Shown here piece after piece: positions 15,637-20,097 of a stretch of DNA of 64,000 nt. The stretch is taken from assembly GCF_009914755.1 (NCBI RefSeq), contig NC_060926.1, one strand, 5' to 3'. A program made the position numbers and the translations under genes. This DNA is from the human T2T-CHM13v2.0 reference genome, Homo sapiens. Numbering within the stretch: position 1 is the first letter of the stretch; each line of letters begins with the position of its first letter. The notes beneath the pieces are model-generated. The model did not search any database. It was not told the origin of the DNA and saw nothing but the letters and a program-made list of their open reading frames with translations.

Positions 15637-16277
15637 GGCTAGGCGCGGTGTCTCACGCCTGTAATCTCAGCACTTTGGGAGGCCAAGGTGGGCTGATCAC
15701 AAAGTCAGGAGATTGAGACCATCCTGGCCAACACGGTGAAACCCCATCTCTACTAAAAAAAAAAAAAAAAAAAAAAATTAGCATGTTTTATGACTTTGTT
15801 TATGTTCTGGTTGCATATGTACATTCACTTTAAGAAAGTTATTCTAGCTTTACACTTATGAGTCTTGTACTTTTCTGAGTAGATACTGTATGTAGTTCAA
15901 TAAAAATATACTTCAAACAATATATTTCTAAGGGAAAAGAGTTCTGAAATATAACATAACCATTTTGACATACTAAAATATATACTCCATGAAGCATTAC
16001 GTTAACTGCAATATAGACACACACACACACATATATATGTATACACATATATATGTATTTCCATGTGTAGATATAAATTGACATAATCTATGATTGAGTC
16101 ATACGTACTCAGACAGGCATGGTGGTGCGTGCCTGTAATCCCAGCTACTTGGGAGGCTGAGGCAGGAGAATTGCTTGAACCTGGGAGGCAGAGGTTGCAG
16201 TGAGCCAAGATTGCGCCACTGCACTCTAGCCTGGCGACAGAGCTAGACTCCGTCTCAAACAGAATAAAAATAAAAAT
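15637..16277 (+). mobile_element. AluSc-like element split at its central linker by a 330-bp insertion (left arm 15637-15782, right arm 16114-16277)
   Basis: Left arm ends '...tactaaaa(A)nttagc' and right arm starts 'caggcatggtgg'. Rejoined they give an intact ATTAGCCAGGCATGGTGG. Sc-type 'gagaccatcctggccaac' and 'cctggcgacag'. Confidence 0.92.
15784..16113 (-). repeat. Inverted duplicate (derived copy) of 19781-20097
   Basis: Reverse complement aligns end to end with 19781-20097, with ~12 substitutions by eye plus small indels. ORFs 16002..16208(-) and 19770..19988(+) share [19 protein letters not shown]. Confidence 0.97.
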
Positions 16278-16405
16278 GAATAGTCACTGTTTAACCTTTC
16301 TTGTCCAGTTTTTGTGTTTTTAAAACATCCTGCAGAAATGTGTATCTTTCCTTGGGGTTGCGGGGGTATACCTGTGATATGTGGCTTTTTAAAAAAGCTT
16401 TTGCT

Positions 16406-16548
16406 GCTTTTTTTTTTCCCCTTTTTTTGGAGAGAGAGTCTCACTCGGTTGCCCAGACTGGAGTGCACTGGAGCAATCATTGCTCACTGCAACCACAAAC
16501 TTGCCTCGGCCTCTTAAAGCACTGAGATTACACGAGTGAGCCACTGTG
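16406..16548 (-). mobile_element. Old, internally collapsed Alu (J/monomer-like)
   Basis: 3' end of the right arm joined through 'acaaac' to 'ttgcctcggcctc..gagattaca..gtgagccactg'. Confidence 0.75.
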
Positions 16549-17329
16549 GAAGGACAAGCTGCTTTTATTTATGCATATTAATTTCTTTATCACACATTTT
16601 ATTTTTAAAATTATTTCTAGTGTCTTGAGTTTAATGTTCATTTTTTATTTTTCATCCATTATTTTTTCAAATATGAAAGAACTCAACACTATGAATTGTC
16701 CATGGAGTATAAATTTGGTTGCCTTTTATAGATTTTTATAGGTAATATTCTAATTATTTCATTTTATTAATATTTTCTAATGGAAGTTCCACATTTTCCA
16801 ATTTTGCTTGAGGGTTGCTTATAAAAGTTTTGTTTTTATGGTTGTTTATTTTCACATCTGAGAATGTTTTGTTTTTAGTTTTGTGCATAATTTATAATTG
16901 GGTAAACTCTTCTGCAACATCATCTCTACCTCCTACCTTGCATGCTATTCTATAGCCAATCATTTTCTTTTATATTTACCAAATATCTCTTAAATGCAGG
17001 CCATAAGTCTGACACCTCACTAGGATGTAATAATATACATGAAGCATACAGTGTATCTGGATTCAATGATCTTACAATGTTGGTCTAGTGGCATACAGTA
17101 AACAAATAAGAGCAGGCATGGTAAACATATTGAGATCATATATATATAAAAGTTGAGTGGGGTCACAATTGAGAGACCGTGAGATTTCAGAGAAACTCTT
17201 CATAGAGATGAAAGATGAGAAGAGTTTTGAGGGGAGAGGTATTTACCTAGTAGAAAATATTTGGATGGAAACTTTCTGAATAGAGAACAACATTCTGTAT
17301 TCTAAAATCTAATAACTTTGTAGAGGGCT

Positions 17330-17935
17330 CCTTCTTCTTCTGTATGATCTCCTATTCTGTGCTCTTTATCCTGTCTTACTTCCATCTCACACAGATACAA
17401 TTTTTCATTCACTTTCTCTTCTTATTTTAAACTTTTTCCTTCTCACTCAACTCTTTCCTTCCAAATTTATGAATATATCCAGACGGCACTCATTCTAACA
17501 CACATGTACACACACATTCCTCCTCTTAACTCTTCATCCTGTTCAGCTCTTGCTCTTGCCCATAATCAGAACTTTCTGTCATGATTTTCTCATTGTTCTT
17601 GCTTTTCTCAACTCATCATAATGTGACTCTTATCCCAGGAATGGCAGGAAGTTATTTCGCTGAGATCACCACTGACGATCTAATTGCAAAATCTAATGGG
17701 CATCTTTCATTACTCTTACTTTTGGAGGCACACGATCATACTATGCACATATATATTGCCGACACAATCCCGATATTATCTGGATTAAGATTGTTTGCAT
17801 GTATGTCCCTTAATAGACTAGAAAAATGTGAGGGTAAGAGATATTATGTATTATCTATCTTTGATCTATCTTTGTAGCCCTAATGTTTAGATCAGTGCTT
17901 AGTACATAATAGACACTAAAAAATTTAGTGAACTC
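17330..17935 (+). mobile_element. L2 fragments
   Basis: 'gatcaccactgac..ctaattgcaaaatctaatgggcatcttt'; 3' end 'cagtgcttagtacataatagacact'. Confidence 0.55.
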
Positions 17936-18109
17936 AGTGGTGCCAGCAATTATTCAGATATTGAGTTCTCCTGGGGAGATTCTTTGTGATGTGCTGATGC
18001 ATTTAGGTCAACTCTGTCCAATTATCATTTTCATGTCCTAGAGTCATTCTAAACACTCTAGCTCCTGAGCGTATGTATTACTTTAATGATATCTTTACCA
18101 ATGCTTTGG

Positions 18110-18473
18110 TGTGTTAGTCTATTCAGGCTTCTATTACAAACTACCATTGACAAGCTGTTTTACAAACAGGAGGAATTTGTTTCTCACAGCTTTAGAAAAC
18201 CAGAAAGTTCAAGATCAAGGTGCCAGCAGAGTTAGTGCCTGGTGCTGGCCACTTCCTGCTTCATAGACAGCATTTTTTGTTGTGTATCCACATGACAGAA
18301 AGGGCAGGTAAATATCTCTGGAGCTTCTTTTTTAAGGGCACTGATCCCATTCATGAAGACTCTACTCTTGATGTAATTATCTCCAAAAGGCCCCACAACC
18401 AAATACCCTGACATTGGGGATTAAATTTCAACATACAGTTTTTTGGTGGAATGCAAACATTCAGACCATAGCA
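18110..18473 (-). mobile_element. ERVL-MaLR solo LTR (MLT1A/MSTD-like)
   Basis: tgtgttagtc...aagttcaagatcaaggtgccagcag...aagggcactgatcccattcatga...cattcagaccatagca. Confidence 0.85.
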
Positions 18474-19780
18474 ACTGACATAAATATGTTGAATCATTCC
18501 CTCATTCAAAAGGGGTTTTCCATCTAATGGATGTAGATGTTATGAGTAGAGAATCAGAGACCCCACTGCTGTGGAAGCAGACCCTCCAAATTAGGGCAAT
18601 TTTTCTACTGGAAGGTTTTGAAAGCTTCAACAGGCCACAATAGTTTCATTTGAGACAAACTCTAATTCCATGTAATATATGTGTAATGTGTGATGTGCAA
18701 AGTGTGTTTGTGTGTGTGTGTCTGCGTATGCATAGACACATCCGTGCATGTCTGTTTATCTCATAGGGATCTTGGTTTTACACCCAAGAAAAAAGTATGG
18801 CTTCTCTTAATTCTGCTTCTTCTTACCAGCCCTTAGAATTCAACCTGCTTCCTGTCACAGAAAGGTATATGACTATCTTAAAATATGATTTTATTAGCCC
18901 CCTTTTTCTCTATTATGATCTTGGAAACTTGTCATTATTATTCAGATTAGCTTTACTACTGTATTAATGAGATAATTAATGTATGTAAGGATGTATGTGT
19001 GAGTGTCAGTGTGTGGGTATTTGCATGCATAATTTTGTTTTTTTCTTGAATTTCACTGAACAGATTTGTCATTTACATCATTTGGATACATAATACATTC
19101 CATTTGTGTAAGTGTTTTTTTTTTTTTTTTCATCTTTTGAAAATTAACAATGGCTATCTGGAGCCAAAGATTTTACCAGATAGAAATAAGGTTTCTCTTT
19201 ATTATAGAATTGACATTTTCAATTTTTATTATAAAAAGCAAATTGAAGTCTTTAATTGCCTGGGTTTTATGAATGTATTGAATTTTCTAATTTCAATGTT
19301 AATGGATACATATTTCTTTCTAGATTTCTTTTCTTTTAAATAATAAGCAACTGGTTTGACATGCCTTTAATCAAGATTTATCATGACCTTATTAGAAAGT
19401 TAATGTTTGGAACATTTACTCTCTGATGAACCACCAATTTTGTATTTTACATTTATCTGCAATTTCCAACAGTGAAGAGGTTGTCTGCAAATGGAATTAA
19501 TTCTTCTCCATTTGGTTATCATCTCCTTTGCTCCAATCCCTGGTAATAGCTAAGCTTGTTCAAGATATTAAAGAGGTAGATCAAGGATCTAAATGGTAGG
19601 GAAAATTTTCAATTTCTTAAATTTCATTTATTATGTTGATAAATCTGGCCTCTTTGATAGTTTGTCATTTTCATAGAATTGATTATTCATTAGCACCATT
19701 GCAGACCATATAGCTACCATCTTTGCTTAGGTTTTCTAGCCTCTGGATCTGATTGAGAAAGGAAGACATTTGAAAGCATA

Positions 19781-20097
19781 TCTGAGTACACATGACTCAA
19801 TCATTGATTATGTCAATTTATATCTACACATGGAAATACATATATATGTGTATATATATGTGTGTGTGTGTGTCTATATTGCAGTTAATGTAATGCTTCA
19901 TGGAGTATATACTTTAGTATGTCAAAATGGTTATATTTCAGAACTCCTTTCCCTTAGAAATATATTGTTTGAAGTACATTGTTATTGAACTACAGTATCT
20001 ATTCAGAAAAGTAGAAGACTCATAAGTGTAAAGCTAGAATAACTTTCTTAAAGTGAATGTACATATGTAAACAGAACATAAACAAAGTCATAAAACA
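19781..20097 (+). repeat. Donor copy of the inverted duplication: unique sequence + (TA)(TG) tract + start of an old antisense L1 3' end
   Basis: Matches the reverse complement of 15784-16113; the L1-like sequence runs on past 20097 here. Confidence 0.95.

What the first reader, a model, noticed from the sequence alone, without database searches (positions are those of the whole stretch)
15784..20097. 330-bp locally templated inverted insertion placed cleanly in the central linker of an Alu
Seen: 15784-16113 is the reverse complement of 19781-20097 (about 12 substitutions by eye, two 4-5-bp micro-duplications and a changed TG/TA tract). The spacer is 3667 bp. Removing 15783-16113 restores an intact Alu junction ATTAGC|CAGGCATGG, so no Alu sequence was lost. 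There is no TSD and only one extra base (a15783). Direction can be read: the old L1 3' end in the segment continues past 20097 but stops abruptly in the Alu copy, so 19781-20097 is the donor. The Alu linker next to the junction has become a pure A run. Inference: this is a DNA-templated event (template switching or synthesis-dependent end joining from a neighbouring locus), not retrotransposition. A repeat annotator would likely report it only as unrelated fragments.
Basis: partly seen in the sequence, partly recalled or inferred. Interest (0 to 1): 0.8.

Follow-up and report, generated by a model that had tools for sequence, protein, structure and literature searches.

The report
Backwards local copy patched into Alu
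A 330-base stretch copied backwards from 3.7 kb away sits cleanly inside an Alu element; it is an old scar of DNA break repair, not a jumping-gene insertion, and is a tidy example of a known kind of mutation.

Summary
Window 15784-16113 is the reverse complement of 19781-20097, with 305 matches, 12 mismatches and three 4-5-bp indels. It splits an Alu exactly between two adjacent consensus positions. The insert has no target-site duplication and no poly(A).

The genome holds four copies, not two. The whole window is a 99.43% inverted segmental duplication of chrX:142.44-142.50 Mb, and both paralogues carry both arms. So the segment is not a repeat family or an assembly artefact, and the insertion predates that duplication.

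The chrX paralogue corrects three details:
- The pure-A linker is a later change specific to chr2.
- The "extra base" is G on chrX.
- The first base after the insert is T on chrX, so each junction is uncertain by 1-2 nt.

The "old L1 3' end" argument for direction was not verified. Direction follows from the integrity of the Alu instead.

Best reading: a DNA-templated patch copied in cis during repair of a break or stalled fork, sealed by end joining with 0-2 nt of microhomology. The interrupted Alu lies head-to-head with another Alu, 30 bp apart. RNA-templated repair is not excluded.

This is a new member of a known kind, of low to moderate interest.

The parts
15331..15606 (-). Alu-1, the neighbouring Alu. 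It lies head-to-head with the interrupted Alu and lacks 17 nt near its head relative to 6 other Alus.
   Evidence: Reading; alignment. Its 16-bp target-site duplication matches at 15 of 16 positions, and 1 of 2000 shuffles reach that score.
15607..15636 (.). 30-bp spacer between the two Alu heads. It contains the right-hand TSD of Alu-1 and the candidate 5' TSD of Alu-2.
15637..15782 (+). Alu-2 left half, ending ...TTAGC. Its linker is a 23-nt pure-A run (15755-15777) on chr2 only.
   Evidence: It is 90.8% identical (89 of 98) to Alu-1 in inverted orientation. With Alu-1 it folds as a long hairpin: -118.4 kcal/mol, z = -22.
15783..15783 (.). One base matched by neither the Alu nor the donor: A on chr2, G on chrX.
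15784..16113 (-). Inserted inverted copy, 330 bp.
   Evidence: Reverse complement of 19781-20097: 305 matches, 12 mismatches, 3 indels. Identical over all 330 bases to the chrX paralogue's insert.
16114..16272 (+). Alu-2 right half and A-rich tail. It starts at the Alu column immediately after TTAGC.
   Evidence: 7 of 7 reference Alus. It is 85.7% identical (126 of 147) to Alu-1.
16273..19780 (.). Remainder of the 3667-bp spacer between the arms (the spacer runs 16114-19780). It is single-copy except for an old dispersed repeat at about 18095-18495.
   Evidence: full-length matches only on chr2 and chrX. It is collinear between the paralogues.
19781..20097 (+). Donor (template) segment, 317 bp, intact and embedded in non-Alu sequence.
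20118..20707 (+). Old dispersed repeat flanking the donor. It is not detectably continuous with the donor.
   Evidence: 4300 first-look candidates, of which 40 were scored. nhmmer against 10 family loci reaches 20118/20181 at the leftmost.

Best explanation
After the Alu (Alu-2) had inserted, its DNA broke, or a replication fork stalled, in the central linker region between ...TTAGC and the next base. During repair a 3' end used the same chromosome (or the sister chromatid) 3.7 kb away as a DNA template. About 317-319 nt were copied from the opposite strand, so the patch reads backwards. The extended end was then released and sealed to the other Alu end by end joining with essentially no homology. 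The donor stayed intact.

The simplest geometry is fold-back priming. The 3' tail on the right of the break is single-stranded after long resection. It anneals to its own strand just beyond 19781 and is extended to 20097. A switch between leading- and lagging-strand templates within one fork gives the same product.

The head-to-head Alu pair (30-bp spacer) is a plausible but unproven cause of the break.

Shown: the inverted copy, its secondary nature, the intact donor, near-blunt junctions, the absence of TSD and poly(A), and an age greater than the chr2/chrX duplication.

Inferred: the break itself, the nature of the template (DNA rather than RNA), the polymerase and the trigger.
For: 1. The insert splits one Alu at adjacent consensus positions with at most 1 nt gained or lost (7 of 7 reference Alus). 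The donor's flanks hold no Alu.
2. The donor is retained, so this was copying and not cut-and-paste.
3. The source lies 3667 bp away in cis and the segment is otherwise unique. Of 17 matches, 4 are full-length (2 loci x 2 arms) and 13 cover only the CA/TA tract (query 228-296). Proximity this close is not expected for patches taken at random from the genome or transcriptome. The published experimental patches mapped to 18 of 24 chromosomes without preference (PMC5110952, passage).
4. The inverted orientation is what fold-back priming or a leading/lagging template switch requires.
5. There is no TSD, no poly(A) and no L1-endonuclease-like site.
6. In the chrX paralogue, donor identity runs 2 nt further at the right junction (TA). 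This allows 1-2 nt of priming microhomology there, while the left junction carries one unmatched base, as expected for the sealing end.
7. The site is one arm of a head-to-head Alu quasi-palindrome. Closely spaced inverted Alu pairs are reported to be depleted and unstable (PMC3215922, abstract).
8. Both independent paralogues carry the same structure, which excludes an assembly artefact.
Against: - There is no positive mark of DNA templating. Microhomology is 0 nt at the left junction and 0-2 nt at the right, depending on which paralogue keeps the ancestral base.
- The template distance (3.7 kb) and length (330 nt) lie far outside the ranges in which templated inverted insertions are usually sought. 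One detector looks for templates within 100 bp (PMC8421209). Another uses a filter of at most 250 bp, and its longest candidate is 318 bp (PMC9435742).
- The junction features are the same as those of class-2 templated insertions, which are attributed to RNA-derived patches.
- The link to the inverted Alu pair is circumstantial. The break point is about 147 nt into the arm, not at the centre of the palindrome, and the order of the two Alu insertions relative to the event is unknown.
- No outgroup or second human genome was available.
Confidence: 0.65

Rival explanations
1. RNA-templated patch. A local, unspliced and non-polyadenylated transcript of the region was reverse-transcribed, for example by L1 ORF2p acting independently of its endonuclease. 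The cDNA was used to fill a double-strand break in the Alu. This would be a fixed equivalent of a class-2 templated sequence insertion.
For: The junction features match the published definition of class 2: no TSD, no poly(A), non-templated nucleotide or microdeletion, and an intact donor (PMC5110952, passages; junctions). A nascent transcript would also lie physically close to the break.
Against: There is no sign of RNA: no splice junction, no poly(A) and no transcript end. The published patches came from distant sites on many chromosomes, whereas this one comes from 3.7 kb away. Orientation is uninformative. Transcription of the ancestral locus could not be assessed with these tools.
Confidence: 0.15
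2. Capture of a free double-stranded DNA fragment. A fragment of about 320 bp, released from the sister chromatid or from aberrant replication of the neighbouring DNA, was ligated into a break by classical non-homologous end joining.
For: Both junctions are blunt or nearly so, with one unmatched base. This is typical of fragment capture as described for plasmid and mitochondrial DNA patches (PMC5110952, Introduction passage).
Against: This model needs a second lesion to generate the fragment while leaving the donor intact on the surviving chromatid. A local origin is not required by the model, so the 3.7-kb proximity would be a coincidence unless both lesions came from one replication accident.
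Confidence: 0.12
3. The direction or the unity of the Alu is misread. Either the two Alu halves are independent fragments flanking old unique sequence, or the copy at 19781-20097 derives from the Alu-borne one.
For: The candidate TSD of the interrupted Alu matches at 11 of 13 positions and is not distinguishable from chance: 750 of 2000 shuffles score as well.
Against: The left half ends and the right half starts at adjacent Alu columns, in the same orientation (7 of 7 references). Deriving the other copy from the Alu-borne one would require excising exactly the non-Alu part.
Confidence: 0.03
4. Assembly artefact or a dispersed repeat family.
For: None found.
Against: The same two arms, junctions and spacer are present at two separately assembled loci (chr2 and chrX) that differ at 35 positions over 6456 aligned columns. 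Outside these loci only the CA/TA microsatellite part finds matches.
Confidence: 0.01

Closest known systems
Class-2 templated sequence insertions / TSIPs (Onozawa and Aplan; review PMC5110952, passages read)
   Same: A stretch copied from elsewhere in the genome fills a break. The donor is intact. There is no TSD, no poly(A) and no L1 target motif. The junctions have end-joining features, here one non-templated base or a 1-nt loss.
   Different: Published cases come from distant loci and are attributed to reverse-transcribed RNA. This one comes from 3.7 kb away in cis and is inverted. It is present at both paralogous loci of this one genome rather than known as a polymorphism, and no other human genome was examined.
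MMBIR/FoSTeS templated insertions (MMB-TI; PMC8421209, passages) and short-range template-switch mutations (PMC9435742, passages; PMC7954356, search listing only)
   Same: An inverted copy of a nearby template is inserted during replication or repair.
   Different: Those are mostly tens of bases with the template within 100-250 bp, and they are flanked by microhomology. Here the insert is 330 nt, the template is 3667 bp away, and microhomology is 0-2 nt.
Polymerase-theta snap-back templated extension in alternative end joining (PMC4912351, PMC2943611, PMC9303309; search listing and abstracts only)
   Same: A 3' end folds back on its own strand, is extended, and the product is joined to the other end. 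This yields an inverted templated insert.
   Different: By my recollection of that literature, the known products are a few to a few tens of nucleotides, templated close to the break. The scale here is 10-100 times larger.
Interspersed (dispersed) inverted duplication as a class of complex structural variant (bioRxiv 10.1101/200170, abstract and passages)
   Same: It is descriptively identical: a segment is duplicated and placed nearby in inverted orientation, with the source retained.
   Different: That is a descriptive class of polymorphic variants, usually larger. This is an old event shared by both paralogues and read at base resolution inside an Alu.
Fold-back inverted duplications (PMC3907307, search listing and abstract only)
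   Same: Intrastrand fold-back priming after a break and resection produces inverted copies separated by a spacer of some kilobases.
   Different: There, synthesis runs on to give large terminal duplications and dicentrics. Here it stopped after about 0.32 kb and the chromosome was resealed.

Membership tests
L1-mediated retrotransposition (TPRT; class-1 TSIP) | Target-site duplication of at least 5 bp flanking the insert | tested here: not met
   The flanks are ...TTAGC(+1 base) and CAGGC.../TAGGC..., and nothing is duplicated.
L1-mediated retrotransposition (TPRT; class-1 TSIP) | Poly(A) tract at the 3' end of the insert (or poly(T) at the other end) | tested here: not met
   The insert's ends read TGTTTTATG... 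and ...GTACTCAGA. The A-run belongs to the Alu linker, is separated from the insert by TTAGC, and is not pure A on chrX.
L1-mediated retrotransposition (TPRT; class-1 TSIP) | Insertion at a TTTT/A-type endonuclease site | tested here: not met
   The junction lies between TTAGC and C/TAGGC. The motif is as stated in PMC5110952.
Class-2 templated sequence insertion (DSB patch) | No TSD or poly(A); end-joining features at the junctions (non-templated base, microdeletion, microhomology) | tested here: met
   There is either one unmatched base at the left junction or, on the alternative reading, a 1-nt Alu loss. Microhomology is 0-2 nt at the right junction.
Class-2 templated sequence insertion (DSB patch) | Donor locus intact | tested here: met
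   19781-20097 is present and continuous with its flanks in both paralogues.
Class-2 templated sequence insertion (DSB patch) | Patch derived from a distant region via RNA | tested here: not met
   The donor is 3667 bp away in cis. RNA origin is not testable with these tools.
Class-2 templated sequence insertion (DSB patch) | Polymorphic among humans (the P in TSIP) | not testable with these tools
   Only one human genome is held. The insert is present in both the chr2 and chrX paralogues.
MMBIR/FoSTeS templated insertion | Inverted copy of a nearby template | tested here: inconclusive
   The copy is inverted, but the template is 3667 bp away, against the 100-bp search radius of the published detector.
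MMBIR/FoSTeS templated insertion | Microhomology at both switch points | tested here: not met
   Microhomology is 0 nt at the left junction and 0-2 nt at the right, depending on the paralogue taken as ancestral.
Inversion with inverted duplicated ends (staggered-break model) | The sequence between the arms is inverted relative to its ancestral flanks | tested here: not met
   The right Alu half follows the insert directly and in the same orientation as the left half.
Dispersed repeat or transposon family | Many copies at unrelated loci | tested here: not met
   Of 17 matches, 4 are full-length, all at the two paralogous loci. The other 13 cover only the microsatellite part. The search skips very common words, so highly diverged relatives cannot be excluded.
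Interspersed inverted duplication (descriptive SV class) | A segment copied to a nearby site in inverted orientation, with the source kept | tested here: met

The most novel reading that the evidence does not exclude
The insert is the repair scar of a break provoked by a head-to-head Alu quasi-palindrome. The resected 3' end folded back 3.7 kb on its own strand, was extended by about 0.32 kb by a slippage-prone polymerase, and was then end-joined. The three 4-5-bp extra tracts in the copy, two of them exact tandem micro-duplications, would be that polymerase's errors.

If so, this represents a mid-size class of germline cis-templated inverted insertions: hundreds of bases, with templates kilobases away. 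This class falls between what short-range template-switch detectors look for (100-250 bp) and what structural-variant callers report. It would also be one way in which unstable inverted Alu pairs are defused.
Probability: 0.2. Interest if true: 0.4.

Novelty: new member of a known kind. Interest (0 to 1): 0.2.

Why it matters
The Alu frame fixes the pre-event sequence to within 1-2 nt, so this is a clean, base-resolution example of a templated inverted insertion. Two recently separated paralogues give two independent readings of the junctions.

Its size (330 nt) and template distance (3.7 kb) lie outside the search windows of the detectors whose methods I read. Events of this size may therefore be under-counted.

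It has no indication of function. There is no Rfam match and no exon in the window according to the annotation supplied with the task. It now forms a 330-bp inverted repeat that could in principle mediate inversion of the 3.7-kb spacer, but the two paralogues are collinear.

As a single case it does not change what is known about break repair.

Tried and rejected
- **Extent of the duplication:** Using chrX sequence already held, I showed only that the duplication runs at least 8 kb beyond each end of the window. Its ends, and which locus is ancestral, remain unknown.
- **"Old L1 3' end continues past 20097":** the right flank is a dispersed repeat with 4300 first-look candidates, of which 40 were scored. 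In nhmmer against 10 fetched family loci (15 hits), nothing reaches left of 20118 and nothing overlaps the arm. The family name could not be tested because no repeat library is available. From memory the flank looks like a MaLR/MLT1-type LTR rather than L1, but this is a recollection and not a result.
- **TSD of the interrupted Alu as proof of a single insertion:** the candidate matches at 11 of 13 positions, but 750 of 2000 shuffles do as well. I rejected it as evidence.
- **Micro-duplications as proof of error-prone synthesis:** 3 of 3 indels make the insert longer. Without an outgroup, each could equally be a deletion in the donor. My arithmetic gives a one-sided probability of 0.125 for 3 of 3 under symmetry, so the point is not established.
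- **Inversion of the spacer, gene conversion, TPRT, repeat family and assembly artefact:** all rejected (see the membership tests).
- **Rfam scan of 14000-22000:** no family reached its gathering score.
- **An "empty" paralogue with the uninterrupted Alu:** none exists in this genome. The spacer and both flanks have full-length matches only on chr2 and chrX, and both loci are filled.
- **Supplements:** no supplementary files of the papers were opened.
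Full report
**1.

Window 15784-16113 aligns to the reverse complement of 19781-20097 with 305 matches and 12 mismatches, 8 of them transitions. There are three indels of 4, 5 and 4 bp, and each is extra sequence in the copy at 15784-16113. 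The repeat finder shows the same pair as four collinear inverted pieces at 91-96% complementarity (I2/I6/I3/I4). The spacer, 16114-19780, is 3667 bp. Two of the indels are exact tandem duplications in the Alu-borne copy (TGTA twice, ATAAC twice). The third lies in the CA/TA microsatellite.

**2. It is neither chance nor a repeat family, and there are four copies**

A search of the window's own genome (3.1 Gb, 24 contigs) with the 330-bp insert gave 17 matches.
- Four are full-length. Two are the window's own arms. The other two lie on contig C23 at 142485454-142485783 (100% identity) and 142481469-142481785 (93%).
- The other 13 cover only query positions 228-296, the microsatellite.

C23 is 154,259,566 bp long, which I recognise from memory as the length of chrX in this assembly.

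BLAST of the whole window against 80 kb fetched from C23 gives one alignment. Window 1-64000 matches C23:142501565-142437584 in inverted orientation at 99.43% identity, with 250 mismatches and 41 gap openings in 64,049 columns. The duplication continues at least 8 kb beyond both ends of the window.

Both paralogues carry both arms, the same spacer and the same Alu. Over the 6.4 kb around the arms they are collinear, with 35 mismatches and 2 gaps in 6456 columns. The insertion is therefore older than this segmental duplication and cannot be an assembly artefact.

Within the window this is the only low-copy duplication of at least 100 bp at 88% identity or more. The one other row in that scan is an Alu-Alu match.

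**3. Direction of copying**

Each half of the interrupted Alu was aligned, as a separate fragment, to 7 other Alus from the window. The left half ends at ...TTAGC. The right half begins at the next column, where the references read C/T then G/A then GGC. The two halves are therefore one Alu split between adjacent positions, and the segment between them arrived later.

The copy at 19781-20097 has no Alu sequence at either flank.

The flank to the right of the donor is a dispersed old repeat, with 4300 first-look candidates of which 40 were scored. In nhmmer comparisons with 10 fetched family members (15 hits), the leftmost reach is 20181 for a strong hit and 20118 for a weak one (E = 5.5e-6). 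Nothing overlaps the arm. No repeat library is available here, so the family name (L1 or otherwise) is untested.

A candidate target-site duplication of the interrupted Alu matches at 11 of 13 positions but is not distinguishable from chance, since 750 of 2000 shuffles score as well. I do not use it as evidence.

**4. Junction anatomy, read from two paralogues**

*Left junction.* chr2 reads TTAGC-A-TGTTTT and chrX reads TTAGC-G-TGTTTT. The donor has T before TGTTTT. The chr2 A sits where chrX has a CpG, so G is the likelier ancestral state. That is an inference from the well-known excess of CpG-to-CpA changes.

*Right junction.* chr2 reads CAGA-C-AGGCATGG and chrX reads CAGA-T-AGGCATGG. The donor continues CAGA-TATGC.

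Two readings are about equally parsimonious:
- Reading 1: one non-templated G, a copy of the donor from 20097 to 19781, and an Alu left fully intact. chrX later changed C to T.
- Reading 2: no extra base, a copy running 2 nt further (to 19779), and one C lost from the Alu. chr2 later changed T to C.

Either way each junction is blunt to within 2 nt. Microhomology is 0 nt at the left junction and 0-2 nt at the right. No target sequence is duplicated, and no A- or T-tract ends the insert.

chrX has A5-C-A3-C-A9, which is 4 nt shorter. That change postdates the duplication and has nothing to do with the insertion.

It is a small unexplained coincidence that both junction-adjacent bases are among the 9 mismatches in the 1041 bp compared.

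**5. What it is not**

- *Classical L1-mediated insertion:* no TSD, no poly(A) and no TTTT/A-type site (criteria as stated in PMC5110952).
- *Inversion with duplicated ends:* the right Alu half follows the insert directly and in the same orientation as the left half.
- *Known structured RNA:* nothing in 14000-22000 reaches an Rfam gathering score.

**6. Context**

The interrupted Alu (Alu-2, head at about 15637) lies head-to-head with another Alu on the minus strand (Alu-1, 15331-15606). The spacer between them is 30 bp.

Alu-1 has a clear 16-bp target-site duplication, matching at 15 of 16 positions with 1 of 2000 shuffles as good. The inverted arms are 90.8% identical over the left monomers (89 of 98) and 85.7% over the right (126 of 147).

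As single-stranded DNA, 15470-15790 folds into one long imperfect hairpin whose stem runs up to the TTAGC at the insertion point. Its energy is -118.4 kcal/mol against a shuffle mean of -36.65, z = -22, and 0 of 100 shuffles fold as well.

Alu-1 also lacks 17 nt near its head, between two CAC triplets, relative to the other 6 reference Alus.

Closely spaced inverted Alu pairs are reported to be under-represented and a source of instability (PMC3215922, abstract). Further papers on inverted-repeat fragility were seen only as search listings. This makes the pair a plausible trigger, but nothing here shows it. The break point is about 147 nt into the arm rather than at the centre of the palindrome.

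From memory of diagnostic positions, Alu-2 looks like an AluS and Alu-1 like an AluY. This was not tested.

**7. Mechanism**

The best-supported reading (about 0.65) is a DNA-templated patch made in cis.
1. A break or collapsed fork arises in the Alu linker.
2. A 3' end primes on the opposite strand 3.7 kb away, either by folding back on its own resected strand or by switching between the leading and lagging templates of one fork.
3. About 0.32 kb is copied.
4. The end is released and sealed by end joining.

The arguments for this are the cis proximity of an otherwise unique source, the inverted orientation, the intact donor and the near-blunt junctions.

The main rival (about 0.15) is an RNA-derived patch. 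The junction features match class-2 templated sequence insertions exactly, and their describers attribute those to reverse-transcribed RNA (PMC5110952, passages). However, the experimental patches they describe mapped to 18 of 24 chromosomes, not to the neighbourhood of the break.

Capture of a free DNA fragment (about 0.12) also fits the blunt junctions, but it needs a second lesion.

A single genome cannot separate these three.

**8. Sequence change since the event, and age**

The chr2 donor has one private substitution, because the chrX donor agrees with both inserts at that site. So 11 substitutions predate the duplication. At two of the differing sites the insert has CpG where the donor has CpA or TpG. 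These were probably decay in the donor, which again is an inference from CpG mutability.

The three indels all lengthen the insert. My arithmetic gives a probability of 0.125 for that under symmetry. From my recollection that indel events are roughly one-eighth as frequent as substitutions, three indels against 12 substitutions is not a clear excess either. Error-prone synthesis is therefore suggested, not shown.

Arm-to-arm divergence is 12 of 317 (3.8%) on chr2 and 11 of 317 (3.5%) on chrX. This is 9-10 times the 0.39% substitution divergence of the two paralogues (250 of 64,049).

I recall a human-chimpanzee divergence of about 1.2% for 6-7 million years. With that calibration:
- The duplication is roughly 2 million years old.
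- The insertion is roughly 18-20 million years old.
- The counting error on 12 events alone spans about 10-35 million years.

These are inferences, not measurements. Gene conversion, or the lower X-linked mutation rate, would shift them.

**9. Comparison with what is known**

Several known classes resemble this event:
- Inverted copies of nearby templates are the signature of MMBIR/FoSTeS and of short-range template-switch mutations. The published detectors look within 100 bp (PMC8421209), or discard switch-point distances above 250 bp, with a longest candidate of 318 bp (PMC9435742). Both expect microhomology.
- Polymerase-theta snap-back synthesis produces inverted templated inserts of much smaller size. 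I saw these papers only as listings or abstracts, and the size statement is recalled.
- Interspersed inverted duplications are a recognised class of complex structural variant in human populations (bioRxiv 10.1101/200170, abstract and passages).
- Large fold-back inverted duplications share the proposed priming geometry (PMC3907307, abstract only).

The present case works like these. It meets the descriptive definition of an interspersed inverted duplication and the junction criteria of class-2 templated insertions. It fails the distance and microhomology criteria of MMB-TI and TSM, and the "distant, RNA-derived" criterion of TSIPs.

My six literature searches were not aimed at this locus. I make no claim that the locus is undescribed.

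**10. Verdict**

This is a real, cleanly resolved, old templated inverted insertion, and a new member of a known kind of repair scar. It has no sign of function. It is unusual mainly for its intermediate size and template distance, and for sitting in one arm of a head-to-head Alu pair. I score its interest at 0.2. Primate orthologues would settle the direction, age, junction bases and polymerase-error question in a single alignment.

Noticed in passing
window 1-64000 and at least 8 kb beyond each end (chr2:87845629-87925579 <-> C23:142430001-142510000): The entire window is a recent inverted segmental duplication shared with chrX: 99.43% identity, with 250 mismatches and 41 gap openings in 64,049 columns. 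According to the annotation supplied with the task, it lies inside the 236-kb RGPD2 gene model, which has no exon in the window. The ends of the duplication, and which locus is ancestral, were not determined.
   Followed up: partly
L025 4879-5010 and 5803-5934 (C23:142434879-142435010 / 142435803-142435934; chr2:87919650-87919781 / 87920574-87920705, about 1.6-2.7 kb beyond the window's end): A second local inverted duplication: 132 nt, 99% complementary, 792-nt spacer, present in both paralogues. It may be another templated inverted copy, or arms kept alike by gene conversion. Its nature was not examined.
   Followed up: no
window 15331-15606 (Alu-1), about 20 nt from its head: Alu-1 lacks 17 nt, lying between two CAC triplets, that the other 6 reference Alus in the alignment and Alu-2 all have. 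This is a microhomology-flanked deletion close to the centre of the head-to-head Alu pair. It would also weaken the hairpin.
   Followed up: no
window 15755-15777: The Alu linker is a 23-nt pure-A run on chr2, but A5-C-A3-C-A9 (19 nt) on chrX. An A-rich linker was homogenised and lengthened within the short time since the duplication.
   Followed up: yes
window 15783 and 16114: Both bases directly adjoining the insert differ between the chr2 and chrX paralogues: A/G at a CpG, and C/T. Overall the paralogues differ at about 0.4% of sites. The coincidence is unexplained.
   Followed up: partly
window about 18095-18495 and 20118-20707: Two old dispersed repeats flank or lie within the spacer. They gave 5397 and 4300 first-look candidates, with the scored copies about 70-82% identical. 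Family names could not be assigned without a repeat library.
   Followed up: partly
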